Of a DNA stretch of 64,000 bases, positions 6,565 through 60,828 are shown one piece after another. The stretch lies in sequence record MZ189261.1; one strand, 5' to 3'. The position numbers and the translations under genes were made by a program. The stretch's first letter is position 1. Each line of letters opens with the position of its first letter. The stretch comes from Escherichia phage S143_2. Under the pieces are notes generated by a model. The model was not told the origin of the DNA. It saw only the letters and a program-made list of their open reading frames with translations, and ran no database searches.

Positions 6565-6791
6565 TAGTAAGTTTCCTTCCAATAAGTTGTACCATTTTCA
6601 GTGATTTCACGGAAGATACCATAGATAGGCATTTCATCGCCGAGTTTTTCGTAAACGTAAACCACTTCGGTGTAGCATAAAAATTCGGTCCAGTTTTTCT
6701 GTACAACAACTAAATCAGGATTAAACAGAACATCTTCAAACTCATCGATGTTTGAATCAGTAGTTACGTTTTTAATGATTTGACGTTTCAT
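6564..6791 (-). CDS. hypothetical protein
   Basis: ORF track 6564..6836 trimmed to ATG (MKRQIIK) after AAGAGGAGAA SD; upstream part is a promoter element. Confidence 0.45.
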
Positions 6792-6810
6792 AATATTCTC
6801 CTCTTGTTTT

Positions 6811-6850
6811 GATAGGTCTATAGTATCATAGACCATAGTTGTTGTACATC
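6811..6850 (-). promoter_or_regulatory. early promoter with stem-loop (variant -35)
   Basis: gataggtctatagtatcatagacc inverted repeat around -10 TACTAT; -35-like TGTACA. Confidence 0.4.
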
Positions 6851-7373
6851 ATTTTAGCAAAATAAAATCAACTTGTTCTGCCAATGAACGTCTAAACATT
6901 AATTGACAACTTCCGAGGATGAAATCAGGTGCTTCATAGACCGCGATGTAGTATCCTTTAGCTTTCAAGAGTTCAACATCCACCTGGTCATCAAACCATG
7001 CATAAACCGCGTCAACACTTTCAAATCCAAAATAGAACCCTTGAGCCCAATCTTCACTCAATTCAAATGTGTGATCAATTCTATAGTATCTTAAGATATT
7101 TTGTTCAAGGAGTTTGTCTTCATTTACTGTAGGACGATTAGGGACATTATAGTTGTCGCCATGATGGTAGAAGTTACCTGAGAGTATTCCATGCTTATCA
7201 AGGAACTCCCATGTTTCTTCAGAGTTGTCGGTGCCCGACCAGCCGTATGGCGAGCGAGGTTCTTTATTCCAAGAGGTTTCCCAAATTCTGACGGCTTTAC
7301 CGTCTTCGATAGCAATTCCTGGTAATGATTCACGTTGAGTACAAAAACTACGTTCTACGCGGTAAACTAACAT
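6849..7373 (-). CDS. hypothetical protein (174 aa)
   Basis: ORF track. Confidence 0.55.
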   Translation of the reverse strand: MLVYRVERSFCTQRESLPGIAIEDGKAVRIWETSWNKEPRSPYGWSGTDNSEETWEFLDKHGILSGNFYHHGDNYNVPNRPTVNEDKLLEQNILRYYRIDHTFELSEDWAQGFYFGFESVDAVYAWFDDQVDVELLKAKGYYIAVYEAPDFILGSCQLMFRRSLAEQVDFILLK

Positions 7374-7377
7374 ATTA

Positions 7378-7428
7378 TTCTCCTCTGGTTGATATGGTTA
7401 TAATATCAAAACCGGAGGAGAAGTAAAC
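7378..7428 (-). promoter_or_regulatory. early promoter with stem-loop enclosing -10
   Basis: minus-sense GTTTAC, 17 nt, TATTAT; arms ttctcctccggttttg / caaccagaggagaa, second arm carries the SD. Confidence 0.55.
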
Positions 7429-7861: not shown

Positions 7862-8392
7862 TTAAGCTTTACGAGGAGACACATAGCGAGTGATTTCAGA
7901 TTCTTTAACAACTCGGAAGTCACCTAAGAATACGATATTGTATAACTTTTCGCCATCTTCAACCCATTGGTCACTAATGAAGCCACACATGGTATCAGTT
8001 GTGCTTGGATAACCGTATTCGTCGATGTAATCAAATTCTTTATCGGTTATAAATTCAACGCCTTTGCAAAGGGCCCATTTGAACTGTACATTAGGCTCAG
8101 TGGATTCACATACGTATCCATCACATGATTCAACTTCTTCAACAGAAGAAAAGTGTGCAGGTGCAACTTCTTCGCTTGAAGCAAATTGGACTCGTATATG
8201 TTTTTCCAGGAATTTAGGACTTACGTAAGCATACTGGGCATCTTGTCCGCCAAAACTGGGCATGATTCGAACTTTAACTTCTTTAACACGTCCCATGCCG
8301 TTAGTACGAAGCCCTGCGACTTCAACCAGACGACCTGCAGCTTTAGAACGAGAAGCAGGAGATACACGAAGGATTTCACCAATAGTAATCAT
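7862..8392 (-). CDS. KOW-like small protein, MotB-like paralog 2
   Basis: paralog of 7433..7852; ORF track start (TTG) trimmed to ATG (MITIGEILRV). Confidence 0.5.
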   Translation of the reverse strand: MITIGEILRVSPASRSKAAGRLVEVAGLRTNGMGRVKEVKVRIMPSFGGQDAQYAYVSPKFLEKHIRVQFASSEEVAPAHFSSVEEVESCDGYVCESTEPNVQFKWALCKGVEFITDKEFDYIDEYGYPSTTDTMCGFISDQWVEDGEKLYNIVFLGDFRVVKESEITRYVSPRKA

Positions 8393-8422
8393 ATTTTTTC
8401 TCTCTTTGTTTAAGTTGAATTC

Positions 8423-8452
8423 ATTATACTCCAACCATCCTTGGTTGTAAAC
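8423..8452 (-). promoter_or_regulatory. early promoter cassette class A
   Basis: minus-sense GTTTAC, 18 nt with caaccaaggatggttg hairpin, TATAAT; same cassette at 49593 and 50613. Confidence 0.55.
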
Positions 8453-10768: not shown

Positions 10769-11515
10769 TTAACCTTTAATCAGTTGGAATAATGATGCGC
10801 TAAGTGGTAAGCCACGTTTCAATTTTAATTTACCAATGAAACCAATCTTTTCAAAACGTTGCAGACCTTGGATAACTTTATCATATGTATCGAAAAGCGA
10901 TTCAGCGTCAGTTAATTTAGTTTTAGTTTTCCAGTCAGAGCCTTTAAGAAGAACGTTGAGTTTAGTAAGTTCATGGCCTTCTGCTTGATGTGAGCCATTA
11001 ATGCGTGCTTTCAAAGCAACAATTCTAAGTTTAGATTCGTTAGATAAAGGTTGATTTTTCATCATGTTCGCCATATGCTTAACACGATTTTCACGTTTTG
11101 CTCGGATTTTTAAAATAGTACCATAAACCTTTTTAATTTGGGCCCATTTCTTCTCATCGAGATTAAGTTTCTCTACTTTACGGGCAGAAGGATTAGCAAT
11201 ACGTCTTGCAACAGCGTCACGTTTCTCAATAAGTTCTTCTAATGTTAAATCAGAACGAGCCGTGTTATATTTTTTCTTAACCGGGATAACATTACCTTTA
11301 ATGTAGCCGATATCGTTATTAAAACGTTCTAAGGATAATTTCTCACCTTCAACAGAGTTATTGAAAGATTCACCTGAGTAAGCGCAGACCTTTTGATCAA
11401 GAATGTTTTTAAGGTAATTAAAGTCTAAGTTAAAATCCTTAGAGCGTCTCTTCGCAGAAGCTCTGGTGTGGTCAAGACGACGATTGATTTTGTTAATTTT
11501 ATTATTTGATAACAT
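10769..11515 (-). CDS. hypothetical basic protein (Srd position); degenerate HNH-like motif
   Basis: 248 aa, CAYSGESF...NDIGYIKGNVIPV; synteny only. Confidence 0.45.
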   Translation of the reverse strand: MLSNNKINKINRRLDHTRASAKRRSKDFNLDFNYLKNILDQKVCAYSGESFNNSVEGEKLSLERFNNDIGYIKGNVIPVKKKYNTARSDLTLEELIEKRDAVARRIANPSARKVEKLNLDEKKWAQIKKVYGTILKIRAKRENRVKHMANMMKNQPLSNESKLRIVALKARINGSHQAEGHELTKLNVLLKGSDWKTKTKLTDAESLFDTYDKVIQGLQRFEKIGFIGKLKLKRGLPLSASLFQLIKG

Positions 11516-11555
11516 AATATTTTCCTCTGTCTTACGGACGTTAGGCCATTTAGCT

Positions 11556-11593
11556 GATAGGTCTATAATATCATGCCCTCAGGTAGTGTACAC
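11556..11593 (-). promoter_or_regulatory. early promoter element (variant -35 GTGTAC)
   Basis: gataggtctataata core, 17 nt, GTGTAC. Confidence 0.4.
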
Positions 11594-11666: not shown

Positions 11667-12275
11667 TCAGTAACCAACAATAGACAGATTCCAGATTGTA
11701 TAACGTCCATCTTGAATAATAGAATCTACACGCAGTGTAGTCCCTATAGGGAGCATAAATTCACATTCGTCAGATATAAGTCTAGCATTAGACCGTCTTG
11801 TCGCTTCAGGGAAAGCTCCATTGAACTCACAAGATGGCGCAGCCAGAATCATATTAAGCATATGTTCACGGAAGTTGAAAGCAAATGGTGCATCTTTGAT
11901 GCAGAACATATTAAATGTTCCGTAAAAATTATACGAAGCAAAGTTACGTGCTACACCGAACACTGGGCTGAAGCTCATTACTCTGTCAAATTTAATAATA
12001 CTACCAATGCCTTTATCATCGAGTGTGGCCATAGTTTTCTTAGAGATTCCACGATACATTGTCTCAGGAACAGAAGACGTCCAATTTCTACGAACGATTG
12101 AACTTAACTCCTGTTGAATACAGTCTGGCTTGTTTTCCATACATTGCCACAGTACACTTTGTTCAATGTCGCTGAATTGACTATCAATTTCGTACTGCAA
12201 TACATCTTGATATTCGGGGTTTTGAGCACGACGAACCATTTCTTCAATTTCACACTCGTTATACGGCATAAACAT
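11667..12275 (-). CDS. modA: ADP-ribosyltransferase, ModA/ModB-like
   Basis: R-S-E type motifs (MYRG, ECEF), 202 aa, position after the Srd-like gene. Confidence 0.6.
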   Translation of the reverse strand: MFMPYNECEIEEMVRRAQNPEYQDVLQYEIDSQFSDIEQSVLWQCMENKPDCIQQELSSIVRRNWTSSVPETMYRGISKKTMATLDDKGIGSIIKFDRVMSFSPVFGVARNFASYNFYGTFNMFCIKDAPFAFNFREHMLNMILAAPSCEFNGAFPEATRRSNARLISDECEFMLPIGTTLRVDSIIQDGRYTIWNLSIVGY

Positions 12276-12282
12276 TTAGGTT

Positions 12283-12333
12283 TCTCCTGTGGTTGATAAA
12301 AGTATAATATCATCGTCAGTAGAGTTTGTACAC
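12283..12333 (-). promoter_or_regulatory. early promoter element proximal to the ModA-like gene
   Basis: minus-sense TGTACA, 17 nt, TATTAT, then GGAGAA SD. Confidence 0.4.
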
Positions 12334-12424
12334 TAAAAATTCAACATTTTCAAATGAATGATTTTGTTAGGTATTCGCGTTCTTGAAGTTCAGATTGACA
12401 TGTCATGATAGACCTCCATTTAAA

Positions 12425-12462
12425 GATAAGCCTATCATAACACGAGAGGAGGGAATGTAAAC
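12425..12462 (-). promoter_or_regulatory. early promoter
   Basis: minus-sense GTTTAC, 17 nt, TATGAT, then GATAGGCTTATC. Confidence 0.45.
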
Positions 12463-13645: not shown

Positions 13646-13873
13646 TTAACAGCAAACAACTTCTTCAGCATCGTAAGCATTAATTGTTCCTCGAACAAAA
13701 CGAACACCACCATCATCCCAACGGATTTCGGCATTAAATTTGACGTCTTCACCATCCATCATGAATGAGTGTACGACTACGTCGTCATAATATCCAAGAC
13801 CATATTTCAACGAAACTTCTTGAGCAATCAAAGCACCTAATGTGTTATTAGGTTTAATCCAACGATTTAACAT
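13646..13873 (-). CDS. hypothetical protein (75 aa)
   Basis: ORF track 13646..13942 trimmed to ATG behind GAGGAGAA SD. Confidence 0.4.
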   Translation of the reverse strand: MLNRWIKPNNTLGALIAQEVSLKYGLGYYDDVVVHSFMMDGEDVKFNAEIRWDDGGVRFVRGTINAYDAEEVVCC

Positions 13874-13879
13874 ATTGTT

Positions 13880-13930
13880 CTCCTCTTGAGTAAGTAATAA
13901 TATCTTAACACAGTTTTTAGTGGTTGTAAA
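13880..13930 (-). promoter_or_regulatory. early promoter
   Basis: minus-sense GTTTAC, 17 nt, TAAGAT, then GAGGAGAA SD. Confidence 0.45.
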
Positions 13931-13937
13931 CTGTAGA

Positions 13938-14250: not shown

Positions 14251-14256
14251 ACTTAA

Positions 14257-16807: not shown

Positions 16808-16808
16808 T

Positions 16809-17468: not shown

Positions 17469-17754
17469 CTGTGATTTCGGTTACGATATCTTTGTTATCG
17501 AAATTAGGGTCACAATACAAAACATAATTGTACTGCATGATACCGCCAGACTTAAGTTGTTCAACAACTTTATTAACCATATTAGGACGGTCTCGTTTAG
17601 TGATGTTCATGATATCAGAGAAGATTTGTTGTTCAACATCTTCTTGATTTGCAGTCATTGACCACTCACAGAGGTCTTTATCATAACCTGCCGTAACTGG
17701 AGCTGGTGCACATGATACTGCGAGTAAGATTGCTGCCAATGATAACCTTTTCAT
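17461..17754 (-). CDS. sp: periplasmic protein with signal peptide, Spackle (Sp)-like
   Basis: 97 aa, N-terminal signal sequence; size and Cys pattern fit T4 Sp. Confidence 0.5.
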   Translation of the reverse strand: MKRLSLAAILLAVSCAPAPVTAGYDKDLCEWSMTANQEDVEQQIFSDIMNITKRDRPNMVNKVVEQLKSGGIMQYNYVLYCDPNFDNKDIVTEITGE

Positions 17755-17774
17755 TTTAACTCCTTAGTTGATTT

Positions 17775-17813
17775 GATAGGACTACTATACTATAGTCCAT
17801 CTATAATGTAAAC
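17775..17813 (-). promoter_or_regulatory. early promoter with stem-loop
   Basis: minus-sense GTTTAC, 18 nt, TATAGT; ggacta...tagtcc hairpin around -10. Confidence 0.5.
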
Positions 17814-17817
17814 AAGT

Positions 17818-18066
17818 TTATTCTTTTTCGCGAATAATAATTACTTGTTGAGGCTGTAGAGCAGATTTCTTTTCGGCAACGATAGACCAAATTAAAGTTC
17901 CAATCCAACCAACCATCGTCCAGTTAAAGAGTAAAGATACGAAGAAGATTGCTGTTGTGCTTTTTGTGCCACGAATAAGTGCGATTACCCAAGGCAACAT
18001 GTAAATGATGATTGAACCAATACCTGCGATTAAAACTGCTACTGAACTAGCTACGAATAATTCCAT
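17818..18066 (-). CDS. imm: superinfection immunity (Imm)-like membrane protein
   Basis: two TM segments, IALIRG...WT.VGW motif typical of the Imm family. Confidence 0.55.
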   Translation of the reverse strand: MELFVASSVAVLIAGIGSIIIYMLPWVIALIRGTKSTTAIFFVSLLFNWTMVGWIGTLIWSIVAEKKSALQPQQVIIIREKE

Positions 18067-18080
18067 GTTAATTTCCTCTT

Positions 18081-18124
18081 GATTTGTTATGTTTATAGTA
18101 TCTTGGTTTAACTTTAGTGTAAAC
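18081..18124 (-). promoter_or_regulatory. early promoter
   Basis: minus-sense GTTTAC, 18 nt, TACTAT, GAGGAA SD. Confidence 0.5.
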
Positions 18125-18127
18125 CAA

Positions 18128-18496
18128 TTAATTAAATTTGTTTAAACGTTCAATACACTGGATGTAGTTATTCGCGATTTGTTTCTGGGTAGGCTCTTTA
18201 CCAGTTGTTTCAACATAGCGAATGAATGCGATTTCAGTAGCCTGTAAGCAATGTTCTTTAACGCGCTGTTCTTTTGACATAGCTACAGTATCAGAATCAC
18301 GATAACGTTGAGCATGAGCATCAGCTTGAATCATTCGATTACCTACAGTAACCGGGTCTTCCACTTCAACTTTAGGTTGTTCATACTGTTTAACATTCGG
18401 ATTGTAAATCAGTTGGCCGACGTTATTAGGAATAAAGCCATGGGCACCACATCCTGTTAATCCAAATACCATTGCTAAAGCGATTAATTTTTTCAT
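18128..18496 (-). CDS. putative lipoprotein (122 aa)
   Basis: signal peptide with LTGC lipobox. Confidence 0.55.
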   Translation of the reverse strand: MKKLIALAMVFGLTGCGAHGFIPNNVGQLIYNPNVKQYEQPKVEVEDPVTVGNRMIQADAHAQRYRDSDTVAMSKEQRVKEHCLQATEIAFIRYVETTGKEPTQKQIANNYIQCIERLNKFN

Positions 18497-18502
18497 TTCA
18501 AT

Positions 18503-18554
18503 TTCCTCTGTAGTTGATAGAAAGATAGTAACACAGTATGTGGTGCTTGTAAAC
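18503..18554 (-). promoter_or_regulatory. early promoter
   Basis: minus-sense GTTTAC, 18 nt, TACTAT, GAGGAA SD. Confidence 0.5.
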
Positions 18555-18556
18555 AG

Positions 18557-18769: not shown

Positions 18770-18770
18770 A

Positions 18771-18962: not shown

Positions 18963-19276
18963 ATTTCCTCGCAAAATGCCCATTCAGCGTGATAAACTGT
19001 AGCACCTTTAGTATTATTCATTTGAACTACATCTACCGGAGAAATTACTCGATAGAGACGTGGTTCACCTCCATAAGAGCGTGCTGCTCGTCCTGCATAA
19101 ATCTTTGCTAAACCGATATCTTCGGTAAAGAATACACGATCCAAGTTTTTCTTACGTCCTGTTTCAGACAGAACTCCTGTTTCTTCAGGAGGACAAAGCA
19201 TGTTTTCGATGTTAGCTGAACTACTTGAACCGTGATAAAAAATCTTAAATTCTGCTTTACAATCGATGGTTTTCAT
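18959..19276 (-). CDS. hypothetical protein (105 aa)
   Basis: ORF track. Confidence 0.5.
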   Translation of the reverse strand: MKTIDCKAEFKIFYHGSSSSANIENMLCPPEETGVLSETGRKKNLDRVFFTEDIGLAKIYAGRAARSYGGEPRLYRVISPVDVVQMNNTKGATVYHAEWAFCEEI

Positions 19277-19280
19277 TTTG

Positions 19281-19331
19281 TTCTCCAGTAGTTGATAGGT
19301 CTATAATAACACAACTACTGGAGAAGTAAAC
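19281..19331 (-). promoter_or_regulatory. early promoter with perfect stem-loop enclosing -10
   Basis: minus-sense GTTTAC, 17 nt, TATTATAGACCTATC; arms ttctccagtagttg / caactactggagaa. Confidence 0.6.
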
Positions 19332-19706
19332 TTAAAAACGTAATTTAGATATATCTGCGTTGATTTCGTTTTGGTTTGCGTCGTATGCAATTAAACGAAC
19401 CGCTTTAGATGGGTCATTCAATGCATAGAAATGATGGAACATTGCTCGAACGATATCACCATTTACGAGTTCTACCTGGATAGGAGAACCTTTTTCGAGT
19501 TGGAAATGTTCATAAGCTTTGATGGTTCGTAGATAATCAAGTTTTTGATTTCCAGCTCCAACTATTTGTACGATACGTTTGCCTGTGTTTTCCATACGAG
19601 ATACAATAGTTTTAGGAGCAAGAATAACGTAGGTTGCCAGCGGAGAAACTACTTCAACAGTTGTGTTTTCGGTGATTGCAGTAAAAATTGCTTGAGACAT
19701 ATTCAT
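19332..19706 (-). CDS. hypothetical protein (124 aa)
   Basis: ORF track. Confidence 0.5.
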   Translation of the reverse strand: MNMSQAIFTAITENTTVEVVSPLATYVILAPKTIVSRMENTGKRIVQIVGAGNQKLDYLRTIKAYEHFQLEKGSPIQVELVNGDIVRAMFHHFYALNDPSKAVRLIAYDANQNEINADISKLRF

Positions 19707-19735
19707 AATGTTTTCCTCTTGGTTGGTGTAAGTTC

Positions 19736-19765
19736 ATCATATCATGCCTAGAGGAAGATGTAAAC
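19736..19765 (-). promoter_or_regulatory. early promoter
   Basis: minus-sense GTTTAC, 18 nt, TATGAT. Confidence 0.45.
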
Positions 19766-19767
19766 CC

Positions 19768-19794
19768 CGAAAGGAGACCGAAGTCTCCTTTTTA
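19768..19794. terminator. hairpin ggagac-cgaa-gtctcc after gene 41
   Basis: perfect 7-bp stem with tetraloop; T-run on plus side, weaker U-tract on minus. Confidence 0.4.
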
Positions 19795-41309: not shown

Positions 41310-41549
41310 TTATTTTTTAAGCATGAAAAGTAAGTAATTTGTATCACGTGGAGTAATATCAACACCCATATCAAAGATGCCTTTATAGATTGGGTATTTG
41401 TTTTCGGTTGTATCGAAGCTGAAACTATTTCCATCACAACTAACAGTAATAGCATCTGTTAAAATGTCATACTCAATCCTAACAATTGAATCCCCAATTT
41501 TAACGTCGAGGTGTTTTTTGAATTTGATAAAATCTAATTCTTGGGCCAT
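41310..41549 (-). CDS. hypothetical protein (79 aa)
   Basis: ORF track. Confidence 0.45.
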   Translation of the reverse strand: MAQELDFIKFKKHLDVKIGDSIVRIEYDILTDAITVSCDGNSFSFDTTENKYPIYKGIFDMGVDITPRDTNYLLFMLKK

Positions 41550-41612
41550 GATATTTTACTCATTTTAAGACGATAGGAAGATAATAACATGTCTTCCTAT
41601 CGTTGTACATTA

Positions 41613-42501: not shown

Positions 42502-42680
42502 GGCTTAATTTCCTTCGCAATTGAACAGAAGATACTACGGTCACAAAGCATTTCACCAATTTCTGGATATTTGATTGAACGGTACCAAACATCCAGGCTT
42601 GAAATTCTGGTTATCCGTACTGCATTACCATTGACAGAATAATACCGGTCAACCTTAATTTCTTTATCTTCAATTGTCAT
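42498..42680 (-). CDS. hypothetical protein (about 60 aa)
   Basis: ORF track 42498..42842 trimmed to ATG (MTIEDKEIKV); upstream part holds a promoter. Confidence 0.4.
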   Translation of the reverse strand: MTIEDKEIKVDRYYSVNGNAVRITRISSLDVWYRSIKYPEIGEMLCDRSIFCSIAKEIKP

Positions 42681-42694
42681 TTTGTTTTCCTCTA

Positions 42695-42737
42695 TAGCAG
42701 ATGGTTTAATCTTAACATATCTATCGAGGATGTAAAC
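42695..42737 (-). promoter_or_regulatory. early promoter
   Basis: minus-sense GTTTAC, 17 nt, TAAGAT, then GGAAA SD. Confidence 0.45.
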
Positions 42738-48613: not shown

Positions 48614-49563
48614 TATAACACCTCAATGGCATTTCGTAAGCCATCCGCTTTCGCATTCAGAGCTTTTAACGATTTAGTTTGTTCTGCAATCTGGGCTTCG
48701 ACTTCTTTCAGACGAGATTTGAGATATTCGCGTTCTTCTCTTAAGTTATCAACTTTTTCTGCTTTAGGCTCTTTAATAGGCTTAGGTTTATACGTATTAG
48801 GGTTCTTCAGCTTAATTTGAATACGAGAACTGAATAACATTGAACCATTATCTTCAGTTTCGCTGAACATTTCAACAACATCCATAGTCTGTAACATCAT
48901 ACGAAGTTTATAAGACAGCGAACGAACGGTTTTGTTGCGCTTATTAATTTCTTCGGCTTTCATGGTACCGAGATTACGTGAGTAGTAATAAGGAACCTGG
49001 ATATCAATTGACAATGATGCGTTACCATTACCAGTTGGTTTGAATACTGCAGTAACCCAATCTTTAACATGAACTTTATTTGTACGACCATCACCGCCTG
49101 TGAATAATTTACGTGAATGTTTAAAAAGCATATTCACTTGGTTATTGAATTCACAAGCAAATTTATCAGCAAATTTAGTTTCAGGAATGGTAGATAACCA
49201 ATCAGCCAAATGAGTCTTTTTAACATCGTTAATAATAGTAAATTCAACTAAATCAGTTTTAGATGTCACAGATTTAATAAAGCTCGGCTTCATAAAGTTT
49301 TTAATGTTATCACGAGCTACAGTAGAAGATAATAAACGAGAACGTTTGAACCATTGAAGCAGTGTCCCTAATGAATGAGAATACGCATTCTGAGTATCTT
49401 TACAGATATGATTTTCTTGGCCTGTGTATGTACCAAAATCGCGAAGAATACCACTTACTACAACTCGGTGTGGAACATCAAATCCTAATGAACCAGAAGC
49501 ACGTTGGGCATGAACGTTAGCGATAAGACCTGCAAAATAATCAATGTAATGTGAACGTGTCAT
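48613..49563 (-). CDS. hypothetical protein with C-terminal coiled coil (316 aa)
   Basis: heptad-rich C-terminal about 60 aa; first of three similarly built genes. Confidence 0.55.
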   Translation of the reverse strand: MTRSHYIDYFAGLIANVHAQRASGSLGFDVPHRVVVSGILRDFGTYTGQENHICKDTQNAYSHSLGTLLQWFKRSRLLSSTVARDNIKNFMKPSFIKSVTSKTDLVEFTIINDVKKTHLADWLSTIPETKFADKFACEFNNQVNMLFKHSRKLFTGGDGRTNKVHVKDWVTAVFKPTGNGNASLSIDIQVPYYYSRNLGTMKAEEINKRNKTVRSLSYKLRMMLQTMDVVEMFSETEDNGSMLFSSRIQIKLKNPNTYKPKPIKEPKAEKVDNLREEREYLKSRLKEVEAQIAEQTKSLKALNAKADGLRNAIEVL

Positions 49564-49592
49564 AATATTTTCCTCTCGTTAAGATAGAAAGA

Positions 49593-49621
49593 TTATACTC
49601 CAACCATCCTTGGTTGTAAAC
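49593..49621 (-). promoter_or_regulatory. early promoter cassette class A
   Basis: minus-sense GTTTAC, 17 nt with caaccaaggatggttg hairpin, TATAAT. Confidence 0.55.
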
Positions 49622-49625: not shown

Positions 49626-50585
49626 TTATGATTTTAATGCATTCATTGCGTTAAAAAGTTTAGAGTACTGCAACTGGAGCTTGGTAACTACTTGTTGAGC
49701 ATCACGAAGCTTAGCTTGTGCTTTGTCAAGTTCAACAGACAGTTGGTCCACAGTGGCTTTAATTTGATTATAATAGTAATCTTCGGCCGGAAGAAGGTCA
49801 TTAGAAACATTTAGTTTTACTGCAGACAGTTTGCACACATTTGGCAAACCTTTAAACATTGATTTACCCGAAGTAGAATAAGCACTTAGGACTTCGGCCT
49901 GTTCAATTGGGGTCCCAGTAAGCGATGCTTCAAACAATGCATTTTCCTTTTTAAGATTTTGATAGTATTCAGAGTCTTTGTGCCACCATGGCGCAGGAAC
50001 CTTTTTACCAATAGATACACGAGCCTGGATAGCGATATGGCCCTTATTCTTGATAGGGTCGATAATATTAAGCTCACGAGAATAAATTGCTTTAATCTGG
50101 TGAATATTATCACCTAACACTTCCAACGCTCGGTGGAATACACGAGCAACGTTATCATTCTTAGGTTTATACGTAAGAGTGAACTCGTTCTCACTGATAA
50201 CCATGATTTCCAACTTATCGTAAGTATATTTCAAATGTTTCATGTTAATTGCTTGAGGACGAATACGAGAAGCAATGGCCATCAGATTGTTAAGGTTATT
50301 CCGGAACTGCTTAGCGAAATATTGTCCTTCACCACCAATACAAAAATTACGAAGTTTCTGTTTGGCTAATAAACGGCTGAACTCACCATTTTTAATGAAC
50401 TCTTTAACGGGTGTGTTAGTAACGCATTCAAATTGAGTAAACTTACGAGAAGTAATCCCATAATACGAACAGATTTCCTCAATCTCTTCAGGAGTCTTTA
50501 CAGGCATACGGATAGGATTAGGACCTGGGGTATATGCGTTCGAGGTAAATTCTTTGATAAGTTCTCTACGTGTAATAAAAGCCAT
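49626..50585 (-). CDS. hypothetical protein with C-terminal coiled coil (319 aa)
   Basis: ORF track. Confidence 0.55.
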   Translation of the reverse strand: MAFITRRELIKEFTSNAYTPGPNPIRMPVKTPEEIEEICSYYGITSRKFTQFECVTNTPVKEFIKNGEFSRLLAKQKLRNFCIGGEGQYFAKQFRNNLNNLMAIASRIRPQAINMKHLKYTYDKLEIMVISENEFTLTYKPKNDNVARVFHRALEVLGDNIHQIKAIYSRELNIIDPIKNKGHIAIQARVSIGKKVPAPWWHKDSEYYQNLKKENALFEASLTGTPIEQAEVLSAYSTSGKSMFKGLPNVCKLSAVKLNVSNDLLPAEDYYYNQIKATVDQLSVELDKAQAKLRDAQQVVTKLQLQYSKLFNAMNALKS

Positions 50586-50612
50586 TTTATATTCCTCATG
50601 TTGAAAAATTTA

Positions 50613-50641
50613 TTATACTCCAACCATCCTTGGTTGTACAT
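50613..50641 (-). promoter_or_regulatory. early promoter cassette class A (variant -35)
   Basis: same ctccaaccatccttggttg core, TATAAT, -35 TGTACA. Confidence 0.5.
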
Positions 50642-51698: not shown

Positions 51699-52226
51699 TT
51701 ATGCGTGAACCGTCTTTAAACGTTCTTCAAATTTCCGAAGAGTACTAATACGTTCTGCTTTCTGTTTTGTATAGTTTGCAATACGTTCTGAAGTGAGAGC
51801 GTATCGTTCGTTTACTGTTTCTTTCATGAAGTCAGGGATTTCACGAGAAGCTTTAATTTCATCAAACTTATCGAGTACTGCCTGGTCTTCAGCGATTAAA
51901 TTTTCGTACATCTCGATATCTTTCTTGATAAACTCGATATCTTCCTGGGTTACTTTGGATAAACGAGATGCTTTATCCTTTTTGTACTGCTCGTTAGTTT
52001 CACGAGACCAGAATAATGTACGTTTTTTGTTAGTGTTTTTGTAGACTTCCACAATTCCAACTGAATCGATGATAGCAATCCAATTCCAGCGAGATTTGAA
52101 AATCTGACCTCCGTCCACGGTAATCTCGTTACCATAAGCAACGTCATTAAAGAACTTGCTTTGTGCTTCAGATTTAAATTTACCGTCGTTATAATTTACC
52201 AGGTTGAAAATATCTTTAGCGTTCAT
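51699..52226 (-). CDS. hypothetical protein (175 aa)
   Basis: ORF track. Confidence 0.5.
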   Translation of the reverse strand: MNAKDIFNLVNYNDGKFKSEAQSKFFNDVAYGNEITVDGGQIFKSRWNWIAIIDSVGIVEVYKNTNKKRTLFWSRETNEQYKKDKASRLSKVTQEDIEFIKKDIEMYENLIAEDQAVLDKFDEIKASREIPDFMKETVNERYALTSERIANYTKQKAERISTLRKFEERLKTVHA

Positions 52227-52244
52227 GTTTTACCTCCAGTAGTT

Positions 52245-52282
52245 GATAGGTCTATAATAACATAACCATAGACCTTGTAAAC
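52245..52282 (-). promoter_or_regulatory. early promoter with stem-loop
   Basis: minus-sense GTTTAC, 17 nt, TATTATAGACCTATC; aggtcta...tagacct arms. Confidence 0.55.
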
Positions 52283-52710: not shown

Positions 52711-53712
52711 TTATTTCAGTAAAGTTACTTCAGAGATTTCCTCCCAACCATCTTTATCAGTTGAAATAAAATCTGCCACATAAAGAGCCGTACGTAATGA
52801 TACATTGCGAAGACGAGATACGTTAGCCTTCATCCAGGACAATGCTTTGTACGTTTCAGCATCAGTCAGACCACGTTTCTGCATCATGTCAGTAGATAAT
52901 ATTACATCTTCAACTCGAACCATAATCTCTTCATTAGAGTGTACTCCAAGATCGAGATATACTGAACGAGATACTAAAGCTTGAAGGTGAGGAGCAAGTT
53001 TCGAACCACGTTCTAACTCTTTATCAATATCAACGTTTGTAATGAAAACGATAGTACCTTCAAACTCAAATTCTTTATCAATACCCTTATCATCGAGATA
53101 AGATGACGCAGTGCTCCAACAAACTTTGCGTTTATCACCGGTATCTAATGCTGCTTTAAGAAGGTTCAAGATGTCCATATCCGAGAATACGTCAACGTCG
53201 TCGATTAAGAGAACGCTGTCTGCATCACGGTTGAGCCAAAGTTGTTCGTAAAGGCCAATACCAGAGATTTTACCATTAATACTTTTGTATTTGATGAAAC
53301 CATTATCATTAGCATTATTAAGTGCTTTATCCAGAGAATACGTCTTACCAATACCTGCTGCACCTGAAATAATGAGTGAACGAATTTTGCCATCGATAAT
53401 ACCATTCGTCATCATGTTCATTACTTTAAAGCGTTTGTTGATACGAGTTTTCATATCTTCAGTGCTTTCAACAACTGCAACTGGTGACGTCTCAACTCCT
53501 TCCATTACGATGTCTGATTTGAAGACCCATACTCCACGTTCAGAACCGTCAATCATAACGAAAATTTTACCATCACCTAAGTGGGAACATTCAGGATTAA
53601 GCTTTGCCGGGAACCAGGTCTTTGTGGCAACATAAGAACCAGAGATTTCGTTATTACGATAGATACCTTTTTTGATTTGAACGTTGAACATTTTATTCTC
53701 CAATTTACTCAT
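52711..53712 (-). CDS. P-loop ATPase (AAA-like) with N-terminal unknown domain
   Basis: Walker A GAAGIGKT, Walker B VLLIDDVD, 333 aa. Confidence 0.6.
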   Translation of the reverse strand: MSKLENKMFNVQIKKGIYRNNEISGSYVATKTWFPAKLNPECSHLGDGKIFVMIDGSERGVWVFKSDIVMEGVETSPVAVVESTEDMKTRINKRFKVMNMMTNGIIDGKIRSLIISGAAGIGKTYSLDKALNNANDNGFIKYKSINGKISGIGLYEQLWLNRDADSVLLIDDVDVFSDMDILNLLKAALDTGDKRKVCWSTASSYLDDKGIDKEFEFEGTIVFITNVDIDKELERGSKLAPHLQALVSRSVYLDLGVHSNEEIMVRVEDVILSTDMMQKRGLTDAETYKALSWMKANVSRLRNVSLRTALYVADFISTDKDGWEEISEVTLLK

Positions 53713-53720
53713 TTCGTTTC

Positions 53721-53758
53721 GATAGGTCTATAATAACATGTTTAAAGCAAAAGTAAAC
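53721..53758 (-). promoter_or_regulatory. early promoter
   Basis: minus-sense GTTTAC, 17 nt, TATTATAGACCTATC. Confidence 0.55.
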
Positions 53759-53760: not shown

Positions 53761-53979
53761 TTATTTGCGACGAGATTTTTTGGTAAGAGGTTGAAAGAAC
53801 ACTGCTTTACCGGCTGGGGTTAAGGTGACTCGTAATGCATTACCGATTCCTAAGGATGCTTTAACTAGACCTTTAGCTTTCAGTTCACCGAATGCTTGAC
53901 GTTGGTCTGCGTCACGAGTGTTAACCATAAGACCTTTATCACCTGCTTCACGAATCATTTCTAACATTTTGGTTTTCAT
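53761..53979 (-). CDS. small basic protein, possible DNA-binding
   Basis: ORF track 53761..54036 trimmed to ATG (MKTKMLEMI) behind GAGGAGAA SD. Confidence 0.45.
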   Translation of the reverse strand: MKTKMLEMIREAGDKGLMVNTRDADQRQAFGELKAKGLVKASLGIGNALRVTLTPAGKAVFFQPLTKKSRRK

Positions 53980-53998
53980 TTTGTTCTCCTCTTGTTTT

Positions 53999-54036
53999 GA
54001 TAGGTCTATAGTATCATATCCTAAAAGCATGTACAC
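53999..54036 (-). promoter_or_regulatory. early promoter (variant -35 GTGTAC)
   Basis: minus-sense GTGTAC, 18 nt, TACTATAGACCTATC. Confidence 0.45.
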
Positions 54037-56581: not shown

Positions 56582-56707
56582 TTTACCATACTCGTTTCAA
56601 TAAGATTCACTATGCCGTTTACCATGTTATAAGTAAACATCGGATAATTGTATTGTACTACAACATAAGCGATAAGCAAAAGTTTCATTTTGTTCTCCGT
56701 TTGTTTT

Positions 56708-56746
56708 GATAGGACTACTATAACATAGTCCTACCAAGATGTAAAC
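56708..56746 (-). promoter_or_regulatory. early promoter with stem-loop
   Basis: minus-sense GTTTAC, 17 nt, -10 in ggacta...tagtcc hairpin, GGAGAA SD. Confidence 0.5.
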
Positions 56747-56982: not shown

Positions 56983-57142
56983 ACATTTGCAATTCGGAGT
57001 GGGCTTCGGCCATCTTTTTCATAGCTCTGTTAATGTCGATGTCTCCATCTTCGCAACCATGAGCATTTTCCCAATCAGATACCGCATTAGCGTACTCTTC
57101 AATCAAAAACATTAACTTAGAAATTTTTTCTTTACGTGACAT
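56963..57142 (-). CDS. hypothetical small protein
   Basis: ORF track 56963..57211 trimmed to ATG (MSRKEK) behind GAGGAGAA SD. Confidence 0.4.
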   Translation of the reverse strand: MSRKEKISKLMFLIEEYANAVSDWENAHGCEDGDIDINRAMKKMAEAHSELQMYVNEIM

Positions 57143-57146
57143 AACG

Positions 57147-57198
57147 TTCTCCTCTAGTAAGTAAGGACTACTATAACACAACCTGAGGAGAAGTAAAC
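57147..57198 (-). promoter_or_regulatory. early promoter with stem-loop
   Basis: minus-sense GTTTAC, 17 nt, TATAGT; arms ttctcctc / gaggagaa. Confidence 0.55.
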
Positions 57199-60312: not shown

Positions 60313-60771
60313 CTAGATTTTAATCACTGCTTTAGAAGCTTTTCCTGGTAGTCGTTTACTGTTAATAATAGCCATTCTGCATTGAAGAGTCTTCATTTTG
60401 AATGCTGGATTTTCGCGACAAACTGTAAGTCCTAACCAAAGATTTCCATCAGTTATTTCTAAACGGCCTGGACGATATTCGACACCTTCGACAAAATCTT
60501 CATCAACATCTGGACGTGCCGGCATTGATAAAAATTCTGCAACTTCTTTAACATGATTTTTTACTTTACGAAATAATTCAAAAACGTAGTTCTCATCTAT
60601 TTCTCTCTGGATAGCACGATCTAAGAGATGTTGAGAATACTTGATATGAAAGCCTGGTAGTCCAAGAGACTTTGCAGCATCTTTTATACCGGCATTTATT
60701 TTGCGGAACTCCGTTTCAAAGATTCGACGGAGTTTATTACGGCGGATAAAAACGTCAGAATTGATAGTCAT
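60313..60771 (-). CDS. regB: endoribonuclease RegB
   Basis: 152 aa, MTINSDVFIRRNKLRR start and HLLDRAIQREIDE block match RegB. Confidence 0.85.
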   Translation of the reverse strand: MTINSDVFIRRNKLRRIFETEFRKINAGIKDAAKSLGLPGFHIKYSQHLLDRAIQREIDENYVFELFRKVKNHVKEVAEFLSMPARPDVDEDFVEGVEYRPGRLEITDGNLWLGLTVCRENPAFKMKTLQCRMAIINSKRLPGKASKAVIKI

Positions 60772-60777
60772 TTTGAT

Positions 60778-60828
60778 TTCTCCTCTAGTTGACAGGTCTA
60801 TAGTAACACAACTAGAGGAGAAGTAAAC
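60778..60828 (-). promoter_or_regulatory. early promoter with perfect stem-loop
   Basis: minus-sense GTTTAC, 17 nt, TACTATAGACCTGTC; arms ttctcctctagttg / caactagaggagaa. Confidence 0.6.

What the first reader, a model, noticed from the sequence alone, without database searches (positions are those of the whole stretch)
19281..19331. Family of about 17 early promoters whose -10 element is enclosed in a conserved stem-loop
At least 17 intergenic sites share minus-sense GTTTAC (sometimes GTGTAC/TGTACA), 17-18 nt, TA(T/C)TAT/TATAGT, often followed by AGACCTATC. Stem arms flank the -10; in several copies the 3' arm contains the downstream gene's SD (ttctccagtagttg/caactactggagaa at 19281; ttctcctctagttg/caactagaggagaa at 60778). 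The arms change between copies but stay complementary, which points to selection for the structure. Copies: 6811, 7378, 11556, 12283, 12425, 13880, 17775, 18081, 18503, 19281, 19736, 42695, 52245, 53721, 53999, 56708, 57147, 60778. This looks like the promoter-early-stem-loop (PeSL) elements reported for some T4-type genomes, but here the loop holds the -10 itself.
Basis: partly seen in the sequence, partly recalled or inferred. Interest (0 to 1): 0.55.

Follow-up and report, generated by a model that had tools for sequence, protein, structure and literature searches.

The report
Early promoters nested inside RBS-hiding hairpins
This T4-like phage carries at least 22 compact early-promoter/ribosome-site cassettes, and in about half of them an inverted repeat spans the -10 box so that, in the best cases (including the RNase gene regB), only RNA started at the gene's own promoter should have a free ribosome-binding site.

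Summary
The window is a Mosigvirus (RB69/JS09-like T4-type phage). The motif occurs 23 times on the minus strand, 0 on the plus strand, about 1.3 expected.

The "stem around the -10" is real but not universal: 8 of 22 cassettes beat 99% of shuffles and 12 of 22 beat 95%. There are two geometries.
- **Type A** (19331, 60828/regB, 7428; weaker at 57198, 19765, 42737): an anti-SD 5' arm directly after the -35 pairs with the downstream gene's SD.
- **Type B** (56746, 41610, 17813, 52282, 6849): the 3' arm is the +1 box.

The expected start site lies between the arms, so the hairpin can form only in read-through RNA. The predicted cost of opening the RBS is 12-20 kcal/mol in read-through RNA against 3-4 in own-promoter RNA.

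regB orthologues in T4 and four other lineages keep the hairpin with different, complementary distal arms.

Type B matches the common RB49 PeSL geometry, so a -10 in the loop does not distinguish these elements from PeSLs. Type A resembles the T4 e/soc/49/I-TevI hairpins but uses an early promoter. I rate it a new variant of a known kind, of moderate interest.

The parts
19326..19331 (-). -35 hexamer GTTTAC of the focal early promoter. The stop codon of the upstream ORF (RB69ORF041c homologue, 19332-19706) abuts it.
19312..19325 (-). 5' arm TTCTCCAGTAGTTG (an anti-SD mimic) filling the first 14 nt of the 17-nt promoter spacer.
19303..19311 (-). Extended -10, TGT + TATTAT. It lies in the 17-nt loop.
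19295..19302 (-). +1 box AGACCTAT(C). The start site is predicted at about 19296, 7 nt after the -10, so it lies between the two arms.
   Evidence: The start-site position is inferred from general sigma-70 geometry.
19281..19294 (-). 3' arm CAACTACTGGAGAA holding the SD (GGAG at 19286-19283). GGAGAACAAAA also fits the RegB/S1 target consensus GGAGRAYARAA.
19274..19276 (-). ATG of the RB69ORF040c homologue (18959-19276), followed by dmd.
60769..60828 (-). Type A cassette upstream of regB. Arms TTCTCCTCTAGTTG / CAACTAGAGGAGAA, 14 bp.
   Evidence: z = -3.8; PF10715, E = 9e-69; p = 0.001.
7371..7428 (-). Type A cassette, TTCTCCTCCGGTT / AACCAGAGGAGAA, 12 of 13 pairs with one C.A mismatch. The stem is perfect in related contigs L197 and L218.
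   Evidence: z = -4.2; p = 0.002.
57140..57198 (-). Weaker type A cassette, TTCTCCTC / GAGGAGAA, 8 bp. A GC-rich terminator-like hairpin lies upstream.
   Evidence: z = -0.6; p = 0.024.
19704..19765 (-). Weaker type A cassette, TTCCTCT / AGAGGAA, upstream of the RB69ORF041c homologue. A UUCG-tetraloop hairpin lies just upstream.
   Evidence: p = 0.007.
42678..42737 (-). Weaker type A cassette, TCCTCGATAG / CTATAGAGGA, 9 of 10 pairs.
   Evidence: p = 0.024.
56686..56746 (-). Type B cassette, TTGGTAGGACTA / TAGTCCTATCAA, 12 bp with one G.U. The -10 TATAGT is in the loop. The SD is not in the stem.
   Evidence: z = -3.9; p = 0.001. Compensated variant in L088.
41547..41610 (-). The -10 TATTAT is in the loop.
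   Evidence: z = -4.7; p = 0.001.
17752..17813 (-). Type B cassette upstream of sp (spackle), GGACTA / TAGTCC plus flanking pairs.
   Evidence: p = 0.007.
52224..52282 (-). Type B cassette, GGTCTAT / ATAGACC.
   Evidence: p = 0.034.
6789..6849 (-). Type B cassette with -35 ATGTAC, GGTCTAT / ATAGACC and a 6-nt loop.
   Evidence: p = 0.005.
8390..8452 (-). Cassette with the spacer AACCAAGGATGGTTGGAG, which forms a small hairpin inside the spacer. The same spacer occurs at 49621 and 50641.
   Evidence: family D7.
49561..49621 (-). Second copy of the spacer-internal-hairpin cassette.
50583..50641 (-). Third copy of the spacer-internal-hairpin cassette (-35 ATGTAC).
53977..54036 (-). Early-promoter cassette with no stem across the -10. 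A terminator-like hairpin lies upstream.
   Evidence: p = 0.43.
53689..53758 (-). Early-promoter cassette, no stem.
   Evidence: p = 0.75.
18494..18554 (-). Early-promoter cassette upstream of imm.1, no stem.
   Evidence: p = 0.34.
18064..18124 (-). Early-promoter cassette upstream of imm, no stem.
   Evidence: p = 0.18.
13871..13931 (-). Early-promoter cassette, no stem. An intrinsic-terminator-like hairpin lies upstream at 13967-13946.
   Evidence: p = 0.73.
12404..12462 (-). Early-promoter cassette with only CCTCC / GGAGG complementarity. Uncertain.
   Evidence: p = 0.29.
12273..12333 (-). Early-promoter cassette upstream of modA. Marginal complementarity.
   Evidence: p = 0.049.
11513..11593 (-). 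Early-promoter cassette with a long 49-nt leader, upstream of the 248-aa ORF 10769-11515 (srd by its position in the T4 map). No stem.
   Evidence: p = 0.41.

Best explanation
**What it is.** The site is one of at least 22 compact early-gene cassettes of a Mosigvirus. Each cassette runs: upstream stop codon, T4-type -35 GTTTAC, 17-18 nt spacer, TGn + -10, conserved +1 box, roughly 20-nt leader, SD, ATG. These are the T-even counterpart of PeSL elements.

**Type A (this site, regB, 7428 and weaker copies).** The spacer directly after the -35 encodes an anti-SD sequence that pairs with the downstream SD and leader, with the -10 in the loop. E. coli RNA polymerase starts about 7 nt after the -10, between the arms.
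- RNA made from the cassette's own promoter lacks the 5' arm. Its leader is open and can be translated, and its GGAG is accessible to RegB.
- RNA that reads through from upstream promoters contains both arms and folds into a hairpin of about -20 kcal/mol that buries the SD.
- The gene is therefore translated essentially only from its own immediate-early promoter. Its output is insulated from upstream promoters and confined to the first minutes of infection.

**Shown versus inferred.**
- Shown: the sequence anatomy, the statistical excess of complementarity, covariation among paralogues and regB orthologues, and the predicted accessibility difference.
- Inferred: the start-site position, the existence of read-through RNA, and the effect on translation.

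**Type B.** These stems do not cover the SD. Their role is unresolved. Candidates are an attenuator, as proposed for RB49 PeSLs, or a protective 3' hairpin for upstream mRNA after RegB or RNase E cleavage. In some phages a type B stem is the inner tier of a two-tier SD-sequestering hairpin.
For: **Promoter family**
- 23 matches on the minus strand, 0 on the plus strand, about 1.3 expected.
- The window is 98% identical to Mosigvirus genomes. RB69 early promoters were predicted by Nolan et al. 2006 (PMC1524935).

**Structure is non-random**
- Fold z-scores are -5.0, -3.8, -4.2, -3.9 and -4.7 for 19331, 60828, 7428, 56746 and 41610.
- 8 of 22 cassettes reach p <= 0.01 against spacer shuffles.
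- Cognate beats non-cognate pairing with p = 5e-5.
- Pooled over 117 distinct cassettes from T4-like phages, 21% of cognate duplexes reach -14 kcal/mol or better against 3.6% of non-cognate ones.

**Covariation**
- Anchored on CTCC/GGAG, at least 5 further pairs occur in 33% of cognate combinations against 2.6% of non-cognate ones. At least 10 different distal helices are seen, including a double compensatory change between two Aeromonas-phage contigs.
- regB orthologues carry different complementary arms:
  - window: CTAGTTG / CAACTAG
  - T4: TTTTCCTCTTGACTG / CAGTTAAGAGGAGAA (2 G.U)
  - L184: 15 bp, perfect
  - L187 and L190: TCTCCTGTAAG / CTTACAGGAGA
  - Karamvirus and a Klebsiella phage: two-tier hairpins

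**Mechanism is feasible**
- RBS opening energy, read-through versus own transcript, in kcal/mol: 19.8 vs 3.8 (19331), 18.1 vs 4.2 (60828), 15.5 vs 2.8 (7428), 12.0 vs 3.2 (57198).
- The own-promoter leader folds at 0 kcal/mol.

**Read-through is structurally expected**
- In 15 of 22 cassettes the upstream stop codon ends -1 to +5 nt from the -35, with no terminator between. All five strongest stems are in this class.

**Precedent**
- T4 e, soc, 49 and I-TevI use a promoter inside the 5' strand of an SD-sequestering hairpin (PMC3014915).
- RegB needs single-stranded GGAGRAYARAA and is inhibited by structure (PMC1702504).
- regB is said to need tight control (PMC3014915).
Against: - There are no experimental start sites, RNA structure probing or translation data for this phage, and none for the T4 equivalents in the literature I could reach.
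- Half of the cassettes have no stem.
- Type B stems do not touch the SD, so one mechanism does not explain every stem.
- The G.U versus A.C asymmetry that would prove a sense-RNA function is inconclusive. A symmetric count gives 26 vs 19, not significant. The energy-based sense versus antisense test gives p = 4e-4 but is not phylogenetically independent.
- A fixed-register covariation count on 29 sequences is only modest: 0.169 against 0.129, reached by 1 of 500 shuffles.
- ORF040c orthologues outside the closest relatives lose the long stem, so the element at the focal site is evolutionarily labile.
- SD sequences are similar everywhere, so any TTCTCC in a spacer will pair with them. Only the distal stem is independent evidence.
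Confidence: 0.5

Rival explanations
1. PeSL attenuator model. The stem-loops are transcription terminators or attenuators that stop RNA polymerase arriving from upstream, so transcription does not accumulate along tandem promoter arrays. New transcripts start inside the hairpin and escape it.
For: - Arbiol et al. 2010 proposed this. They showed that one RB49 PeSL stem-loop lowered lacZ expression as strongly as rrnB T1 (PMC2839356).
- Type B here has the same geometry as RB49 PeSLs.
- One RB49 element (-35 at 3201) is a hairpin spanning the -10 followed by TTTTCTTTT.
Against: - None of the embedded stems in the window is followed by a T-run. The terminator scan of 6000-20000 calls none of the minus-strand stems across a -10 there; its only hit on one is an antisense plus-strand call at 6815-6834.
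- Type A loops are 17 nt and the stems are AT-rich, followed by CAAAATG.
- The window has separate canonical GC-rich tetraloop terminators where termination seems intended: upstream of 13931, 19765, 54036 and 57198.
- This model does not explain why the 3' arm is specifically the SD in many independent copies.
Confidence: 0.2
2. RegB shield or translational coupling. The hairpin protects the SD of read-through (delayed-early or middle) RNA from RegB cleavage. It is opened when a ribosome finishes the upstream ORF, so the gene stays expressible later from long RNAs while short early RNAs are destroyed.
For: - RegB is blocked by secondary structure and cuts GGAG in early SDs (PMC1702504).
- By my reading of the sequences, seven window cassettes carry GGAG plus the A-rich RegB consensus with at most one mismatch.
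- Upstream stop codons lie 0-5 nt before the -35.
Against: - The 5' arm starts 6-10 nt after the stop codon in the window and 8-14 nt after it in T4.
- From general knowledge, a terminating ribosome unwinds only about 5-7 nt beyond the stop codon. At most a few base pairs of a 14-bp stem would open.
- For regB itself, prolonged expression is the opposite of what the literature says is needed.
Confidence: 0.12
3. DNA-level feature or by-product. The inverted repeats act in DNA, as recombination hot-spots for cassette shuffling or as hairpins in single-stranded replication or recombination intermediates. Alternatively they arise by templated quasi-palindrome correction and gene conversion between cassettes, with no RNA function.
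For: - The cassettes are the main dispersed repeat families of the window.
- Three cassettes share an identical spacer.
- In a JS98-like genome the ORF040c cassette shares its first 41 nt with another cassette of the same genome but has a different SD half, which breaks the stem.
- Arbiol et al. mapped crossovers within PeSLs.
- The G.U versus A.C asymmetry is not significant.
Against: - By general knowledge, loops of 8-17 nt strongly disfavour cruciform extrusion.
- Orthologous regB hairpins keep pairing through different sequences in otherwise collinear genomes.
- T4 regB, nrdC.8 and dmd stems each contain two G.U pairs and no A.C pair.
- The preference for the SD as pairing partner has no DNA-level rationale.
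Confidence: 0.1
4. Chance complementarity between pyrimidine-rich spacers and purine-rich SD regions.
For: Non-cognate spacer/leader pairs already average about -7 kcal/mol, and several listed copies are no better than shuffles.
Against: Permutation p = 5e-5. 8 of 22 cassettes reach p <= 0.01 against 0.2 expected. The distal stem extension is enriched about 13-fold.
Confidence: 0.02

Closest known systems
PeSL (promoter-early stem-loop) cassettes of RB49/phi1 (Arbiol et al. 2010, PMC2839356) and of PST/T4 and nt-1/KVP40 (Comeau et al. 2014, PMC4122927)
   Same: - A compact intergenic cassette: stop codon, early promoter, stem-loop, SD, ATG.
- Many dispersed copies in ORFan-rich early regions.
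- Stem position variable, commonly between the -35 and -10 or across the -10. Type B and the spacer-internal hairpins here match RB49 elements found.
- Signs of exchange between cassettes.
- The window also has the terminator-just-upstream-of-promoter form described for PST/T4.
   Different: - The promoters are T4-type (GTTTAC) rather than TTGACA. The stems are AT-rich rather than polyG/polyC.
- In type A the 3' arm is the SD itself. Arbiol et al. 2010 contains no occurrence of the words 'ribosome' or 'translation', and the parts of Comeau et al. 2014 that I read mention the SD only as a component of the cassette.
- No type A elements turned up in the first 50 kb of RB49.
T4 e, soc, 49 and I-TevI translational discrimination: a promoter inside the 5' strand of an RBS-sequestering hairpin (reviewed in PMC3014915, section 29)
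   Same: - The SD is sequestered in long upstream-initiated transcripts.
- A promoter is placed so that its own transcript lacks the 5' strand and can be translated.
- The predicted energetic difference is large.
   Different: - In the known cases the internal promoter is late (or middle), and the hairpin delays expression. Here it is an immediate-early sigma-70 promoter whose spacer forms the 5' arm, and the effect would be to confine or insulate expression.
- It is a multi-copy family rather than single loci.
- It is untested experimentally.
T4-type early promoters (UP/-35 GTTTAC/TGn/-10); RB69 set predicted by Nolan et al. 2006 (PMC1524935)
   Same: Hexamers, spacing, TGn, A-rich upstream region, C-rich -3 to -1, orientation, and position upstream of early ORFs.
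   Different: A search of Nolan et al. 2006 for hairpin, palindrome and inverted repeat found nothing. The passages of the Hinton 2010 review returned for hairpin, stem and sequester do not link such a structure to the early promoters.
Intrinsic (Rho-independent) terminators
   Same: A hairpin located at the end of an upstream gene.
   Different: No U-tract, long loops, AT-rich stems. Not called by the terminator scan.

Membership tests
T4-type early promoter | -35 GTTTAC-like hexamer, 17 +/- 1 nt spacer, TGn + TAnnnT -10 | tested here: met
   23 matches on the minus strand, 0 on the plus strand, about 1.3 expected. Sequences listed.
T4-type early promoter | Correct orientation directly upstream of early ORFs | tested here: met
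   22 cassettes end in SD + ATG of minus-strand ORFs. The genes include regB, sp, imm, imm.1 and modA.
T4-type early promoter | Transcription start mapped about 7 nt after the -10 early in infection | not testable with these tools
   No TSS data for Mosigvirus or T4 were found in the library.
PeSL (Arbiol 2010) | Composite of early promoter + stem-loop + SD/ATG within about 100 bp between ORFs | tested here: met
   Met for 12 of 22 cassettes with a stem across the -10, 3 with a spacer-internal hairpin and 4 with a GC-rich hairpin just upstream.
PeSL (Arbiol 2010) | Stem-loop acts as a transcription terminator or attenuator | tested here: inconclusive
   No U-tract, and not called by the terminator scan. 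Activity can only be settled experimentally.
PeSL (Arbiol 2010) | Association with indels and replacements between close relatives; recombination between cassettes; mini-circles | tested here: inconclusive
   Suggestive findings: a chimeric cassette in a JS98-like genome, identical spacers at three loci, and a 5' arm without its 3' partner in L019. No systematic indel mapping was done. Mini-circles are not testable here.
PeSL (Arbiol 2010) | Sequence homology to RB49/phi1 PeSLs (TTGACA promoters, GN-loop-CN stems) | tested here: not met
   Different -35 and AT-rich stems. Arbiol et al. themselves call the T-even elements analogues, not homologues.
Promoter-inside-RBS-hairpin translational control (T4 e/soc/49/I-TevI type) | SD and/or AUG paired in a stable helix in upstream-initiated RNA | tested here: met
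   Met for type A only: opening energies of 12-20 kcal/mol at 19331, 60828, 7428 and 57198 and the folds. Not met for type B.
Promoter-inside-RBS-hairpin translational control (T4 e/soc/49/I-TevI type) | A promoter positioned so that its transcript lacks the 5' strand of the helix | tested here: met
   The 5' arm occupies the spacer. The predicted start is 7 nt after the -10, between the arms. The position is inferred, not mapped.
Promoter-inside-RBS-hairpin translational control (T4 e/soc/49/I-TevI type) | The internal promoter is late or middle, so the hairpin delays expression | tested here: not met
   The internal promoter is of the early type. This makes the element a variant, not a member.
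Promoter-inside-RBS-hairpin translational control (T4 e/soc/49/I-TevI type) | Demonstrated difference in translation between long and short transcripts | not testable with these tools
   Needs reporter fusions or Ribo-seq.
Intrinsic terminator | GC-rich stem, short loop, followed by a U-tract | tested here: not met
   and the sequences.
Any Rfam RNA family | Match at the gathering threshold | tested here: not met
   0 hits in the whole window.

The most novel reading that the evidence does not exclude
T-even-type phages use a general, conserved 'transcript-of-origin' gate. The spacer of an immediate-early promoter encodes an anti-SD arm, so a gene is translated, and exposed to RegB, only on RNA started at its own promoter. 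Copies of the same gene on read-through, delayed-early or middle RNAs stay translationally silent. This is most clearly the case for the RNase gene regB itself, in T4 and at least five other lineages. It would be a previously unlisted layer of T4 early gene control. It would also explain how tandem promoter arrays avoid cumulative expression without terminators.
Probability: 0.4. Interest if true: 0.6.

Novelty: new variant of a known kind. Interest (0 to 1): 0.48.

Why it matters
**If the type A mechanism holds**
- It adds an immediate-early counterpart to the classic late-promoter hairpins of T4 (e, soc, 49, I-TevI).
- It gives a concrete reason why small early ORFs can sit head-to-tail behind tandem strong promoters with no terminators between them.
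- It links promoter architecture to RegB-mediated early mRNA inactivation. regB's own SD sits in such a hairpin, with covarying arms, from T4 to Karamvirus.

**For PeSL biology**
- It suggests the stem-loop of these shuffled cassettes is not only a terminator or recombination site. It may be a portable translational insulator that makes a cassette behave the same wherever it lands.

**Practical uses**
- Annotating early promoters and true start codons in the many Tevenvirinae therapy-phage genomes.
- Designing compact, insulated expression cassettes.

**Limit**
- Promoters, PeSLs and RBS-sequestering hairpins are all known concepts, so this refines existing ideas rather than adding a new principle.

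Tried and rejected
1. **Generic sigma-70 scan.** 58 sites found against 46 expected, so it is not discriminating. I used the T4-specific motif instead.
2. **First IMG/VR pattern.** With 14 specified bases it returned mostly unrelated contigs. A tighter pattern gave 53 stretches.
3. **MAFFT alignment of regB upstream regions.** It did not register the arms, so I compared the helices by hand and with an anchored test.
4. **Fixed-register pair count on 29 sequences.** The signal is only modest because the register of the 3' arm varies by 1-3 nt.
5. **G.U versus A.C asymmetry, to separate RNA-level from DNA-level function.** The symmetric count is not significant (26 vs 19). An earlier small count gave 4 vs 2. 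The sense versus antisense energy test is significant but not phylogenetically independent.
6. **Link between strong stems and absence of an upstream terminator.** The trend goes the right way (5 of 15 against 0-1 of 7), but the sample is too small.
7. **Rfam.** No family matched.
8. **Literature.** Miller et al. 2003 (PMC150520), Valerie et al. 1986 (PMID 3024113) and Repoila et al. 1994 (PMC395341) are not held. No T4 or RB69 genome-wide TSS data were found.
   - From memory only: Valerie et al. 1986 (NAR 14:8637) noted potential stem-loops preceding ipIII, ipII, denV and orf61.9 in T4. If so, the bare observation in T4 is old.
9. **Intrinsic-terminator reading of the embedded stems.** Rejected, because there is no U-tract.
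10. **Palindromic protein-binding site reading.** Rejected, because the arm sequences differ between copies.
Full report
**Identity of the window.** A 4-kb piece around the finding is 98% identical to Escherichia phages PTK, JS09 and other Mosigvirus genomes (RB69-like Tevenvirinae). Almost all genes are on the minus strand. The layout follows the T4 early region, from rIIA to the denV side of regB. The focal site lies between the homologues of RB69ORF041c (19332-19706) and RB69ORF040c (18959-19276), and dmd follows ORF040c.

**The observation at the focal site.** Read on the minus strand, the site is:

GTTTAC(19331-19326) TTCTCCAGTAGTTG(19325-19312) TGT TATTAT(19308-19303) AGACCTAT CAACTACTGGAGAA(19294-19281) CAAA ATG(19276-19274)

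The two 14-nt arms are perfectly complementary. The loop of 17 nt holds the TGn-extended -10. The 3' arm contains the SD GGAG. As RNA the region folds at -21.5 kcal/mol, against -8.6 +/- 2.6 for dinucleotide shuffles (z = -5.0).

**The promoter family.**
- The motif GT[GT]TAC-N16-18-TAnn[AG]T occurs 23 times on the minus strand and never on the plus strand, with about 1.3 expected per strand.
I added 8452, 41610, 49621 and 50641.
- 22 sites are complete cassettes ending in SD + ATG of an ORF. In 19 of the 22 the -10 to ATG distance is 26-30 nt; the outliers are 53758, 41610 and 11593.
- In 15 of 22 the stop codon of the upstream ORF ends -1 to +5 nt from the -35.
- The box TAGACCTATC occurs 11 times against 2.9 expected.
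- The cassettes are the main dispersed repeat families of the window.

These are the T4-type early promoters already predicted for RB69, where Nolan et al. 2006 found 57 (PMC1524935).

[quoted passage not shown] Eight of 22 reach p <= 0.01 and 12 of 22 reach p <= 0.05. Cognate spacer/leader duplexes are more stable than non-cognate combinations (mean -10.1 vs -7.3 kcal/mol, permutation p = 5e-5). The complementarity is therefore copy-specific and not just pyrimidine-rich spacers meeting purine-rich SDs.

**Stem geometries.**

| Type | Sites | Arrangement |
|---|---|---|
| A | 19331, 60828, 7428; weaker at 57198, 19765, 42737 | 5' arm starts directly after the -35 with (T/A)TCTCC and pairs with the SD and the leader upstream of it |
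| B | 56746, 41610, 17813, 52282, 6849 | 5' arm in the spacer pairs with the +1 box (AGACCTATC, AGTCCTATC or CTTCCTATC); SD left free |
| Spacer-internal | 8452, 49621, 50641 | Identical spacer with a small internal hairpin, AACCA-AGGA-TGGTT |

A fourth arrangement also occurs. GC-rich, often UUCG-tetraloop, hairpins lie just upstream of the -35 at 13931, 19765, 54036 and 57198. This is the form described for PST/T4 PeSLs (PMC4122927).

**Relatives.** I pooled 117 distinct cassettes from the window, T4 and IMG/VR T4-like contigs. Of cognate duplexes, 21% reach -14 kcal/mol or better, against 3.6% of non-cognate ones. For -18 kcal/mol the figures are 9.4% and 0.5%.

T4 itself has such stems:

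| T4 cassette (gene, -35 position) | Type | Stem |
|---|---|---|
| motB.2 (8218) | A | -23.1 kcal/mol duplex, with G.U pairs |
| regB (62797) | A | 15 bp, two G.U |
| denV (65413) | A | TCTCCTGTAG / CTACAGGAGA, 10 bp |
| nrdC.8 (53943) | A | 12 bp, two G.U |
| dmd (20612) | B | 12 bp, including one U.G |
| mobD.2 (57990) | B | 12 bp |
| ipI (73939) | B | 10 bp |
| trna.4 (73572) | B | 7 bp |

I then anchored each helix on CTCC/GGAG and asked how far pairing continues. At least 5 further contiguous pairs occur in 33% of cognate combinations against 2.6% of non-cognate ones. At least ten different distal helices appear. Two Aeromonas-phage contigs differ by a double compensatory change, GTGAGTTTG/CAAACTCAC against GTGATTTTG/CAAAATCAC.

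A stricter fixed-register count on 29 sequences gives a covariation score of 0.169 against 0.129 in shuffles (reached by 1 of 500). This is modest because the register of the 3' arm varies.

**regB, the clearest orthologous case.** The cassette at 60828 drives regB (PF10715, E = 9e-69). Its orthologues keep an SD-sequestering hairpin with different distal arms:
- window: TTCTCCTCTAGTTG / CAACTAGAGGAGAA
- T4: TTTTCCTCTTGACTG / CAGTTAAGAGGAGAA
- L184: TTTCTCCTCTTTATG / CATAAAGAGGAGAAA
- L187 and L190: TCTCCTGTAAG / CTTACAGGAGA

In a Karamvirus and a Klebsiella phage the hairpin has two tiers, an inner type B stem and an outer anti-SD/SD stem. More distant regB genes, in Serratia, Krischvirus and Aeromonas phages, lack it.

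The focal ORF040c site is more labile. Only the nearest relatives keep the 14-bp stem. JS98-like genomes keep 6 bp, and 44RR-like phages have a type B stem instead.

**Mechanism.** A sigma-70 promoter starts about 7 nt after the -10 (general knowledge). That places the start between the arms in type A and inside the 3' arm in type B, so the promoter's own RNA lacks the 5' arm. The leader from just after the -10 folds at 0 kcal/mol. RNA arriving from upstream contains both arms.

The predicted cost of exposing the SD-to-AUG region differs sharply:

| Cassette | Read-through RNA (kcal/mol) | Own transcript (kcal/mol) |
|---|---|---|
| 19331 | 19.8 | 3.8 |
| 60828 | 18.1 | 4.2 |
| 7428 | 15.5 | 2.8 |
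| 57198 | 12.0 | 3.2 |

Type B and stem-less cassettes show almost no difference.

Read-through is structurally expected. The five strongest stems all sit where the upstream ORF abuts the -35 with no terminator between them, and promoters follow each other every 300-450 nt (19765, 19331, 18554, 18124, 17813).

This is the logic of T4 e, soc, 49 and I-TevI (PMC3014915, section 29). The difference is that the internal promoter is an immediate-early one whose spacer forms the 5' strand.

The cassettes also end in GGAGAAYAAAA. That is the single-stranded RegB/S1 target GGAGRAYARAA, and secondary structure inhibits its cleavage (PMC1702504). The consequences would be:
- Own-promoter RNAs are both translatable and open to RegB inactivation.
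- Read-through copies are neither.
- Expression, including that of RegB itself, would be confined to the window in which the gene's own early promoter fires. The review says RegB must be tightly controlled.

**Rival explanations.**
- *PeSL attenuator model.* It has experimental support only for one GC-rich RB49 stem. The stems here lack U-tracts, and the terminator scan of 6000-20000 calls none of the minus-strand stems across a -10 there; its only hit on one is an antisense plus-strand call at 6815-6834.
- *Translational coupling or RegB shield.* This is disfavoured. The 5' arm starts 6-14 nt after the upstream stop codon (6-10 nt in the window, 8-14 nt in T4), beyond what a terminating ribosome should unwind (inference).
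- *DNA-level role or by-product of cassette shuffling.* This cannot be excluded. A JS98-like genome has a chimeric cassette whose first 41 nt equal another cassette of the same genome while its SD half differs, which breaks the stem. Three cassettes share one spacer. The G.U versus A.C test is inconclusive.
- *Chance.* Rejected for the stem-bearing subset.

**Comparison with the literature.** Arbiol et al. 2010 describe five PeSL subclasses and state that the commonest stem positions are between the -35 and -10 or overlapping the -10. RB49 elements such as TTGACA..GGGAGTATGC TATAAT ACTCCC have the -10 in the loop. Type B and the spacer-internal hairpins are PeSL-like analogues in a T-even-type genome.

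Involvement of the SD is not described in the papers I could check:
- Arbiol et al. 2010 contains no occurrence of 'ribosome' or 'translation'.
- The parts of Comeau et al. 2014 that I read mention the SD only as a component of the cassette.
- The 2010 review of T4 post-transcriptional control lists only e, soc, 49, the I-Tev genes, mobE and segB as RBS-sequestering structures.

From memory, Valerie et al. 1986 noted potential stem-loops before denV and orf61.9 in T4, so the raw observation may be old.

**Verdict.** The element is a new variant of known kinds: a PeSL-type cassette combined with a promoter-inside-hairpin translational gate. Interest is moderate. The mechanism is plausible and testable but unproven.

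Noticed in passing
window 8410-8458, 49579-49627, 50599-50647 (minus strand); partial copy at about 32195-32215: Three early-promoter cassettes share the identical 18-nt spacer AACCAAGGATGGTTGGAG plus TATAAT, which suggests recent copying between loci. The TTGGAGTATAAT part recurs upstream of gene 43, directly after a GGGACTTCGGTCCC tetraloop hairpin.
   Followed up: partly
window 22773-22812, 35416-35455, 41547-41586 (repeat family D8): A repeated leader..TAAA(C)ATGAGTAAAATAT(A/C)ATG.., lies upstream of uvsX, of an ORF near 35.4 kb and of ORF 41310-41549. At the uvsX copy it reads as a 4-codon mini-ORF (ATG AGT AAA ATA TAA) overlapping the next ATG, downstream of a MotA-box-like middle promoter (AAATGCTGTA..TATAAT). 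Function unknown.
   Followed up: no
window 13946-13967, about 19770-19795, about 54060-54080, about 57205-57235 (minus strand): GC-rich hairpins, several with CTTCGG tetraloops, sit immediately upstream of the -35 of cassettes 13931, 19765, 54036 and 57198. This is the terminator-then-promoter form of PeSL described for PST/T4 by Comeau et al. 2014.
   Followed up: partly
L125 (2947..) and L034 (2969..), both from IMGVR_UViG_641509422_000001: In a JS98-like genome the ORF040c cassette shares its first 41 nt (GTTTACTTCTCCTGTAGGCATGATACTATAGACCTATCAACT) with another cassette of the same genome, then switches to its own SD. The stem is lost. This looks like exchange between cassettes with a crossover between the +1 box and the SD. 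T4 denV carries a near-identical cassette.
   Followed up: partly
window cassettes 19331, 56746, 54036, 53758 (perfect); 13931, 7428 (one mismatch); T4 regB cassette in L175: The SD plus spacer of many cassettes (GGAGAAYAAAATG) fits the RegB/S1 cleavage consensus GGAGRAYARAA of Durand et al. 2006. The cassettes therefore combine promoter, RBS and RegB target in about 60 nt.
   Followed up: partly
window -35 at 47236 (also 42035, 27278, 62807); T4 -35 at 47452: Four further matches to the early-promoter motif lack a nearby SD + ATG; 47236, 42035 and 27278 appear to lie inside ORFs, and 62807 sits between ORFs. The one at 47236 (GTTTACAACGACGAAGAAACGTGTTATGATGAACC) has a conserved counterpart in T4 (GTTTACACTGATGAAGAAACGGTGTATAATGAACC), so it may be a real internal promoter.
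   Followed up: no
L228 (Enterobacter phage Entb_43) and L229 (Klebsiella phage Roth17), upstream of regB: Here the regB hairpin has two tiers. An inner stem of the type B kind flanks the -10 (AGGGCTAT/ATAGCCCT; GGGCC/GGCCC) and an outer anti-SD/SD stem surrounds it. This suggests that types A and B are variations on one design.
   Followed up: partly
L019 (3625..), IMGVR_UViG_2974546015_000001: This cassette has almost the focal 5' arm (TTCTCCAGTAGCTG) and the same -10/+1 box, but an unrelated leader and SD (..CACATAAATGAGGAAAACATAATG). It is an orphan arm, consistent with shuffling of cassette halves.
   Followed up: no
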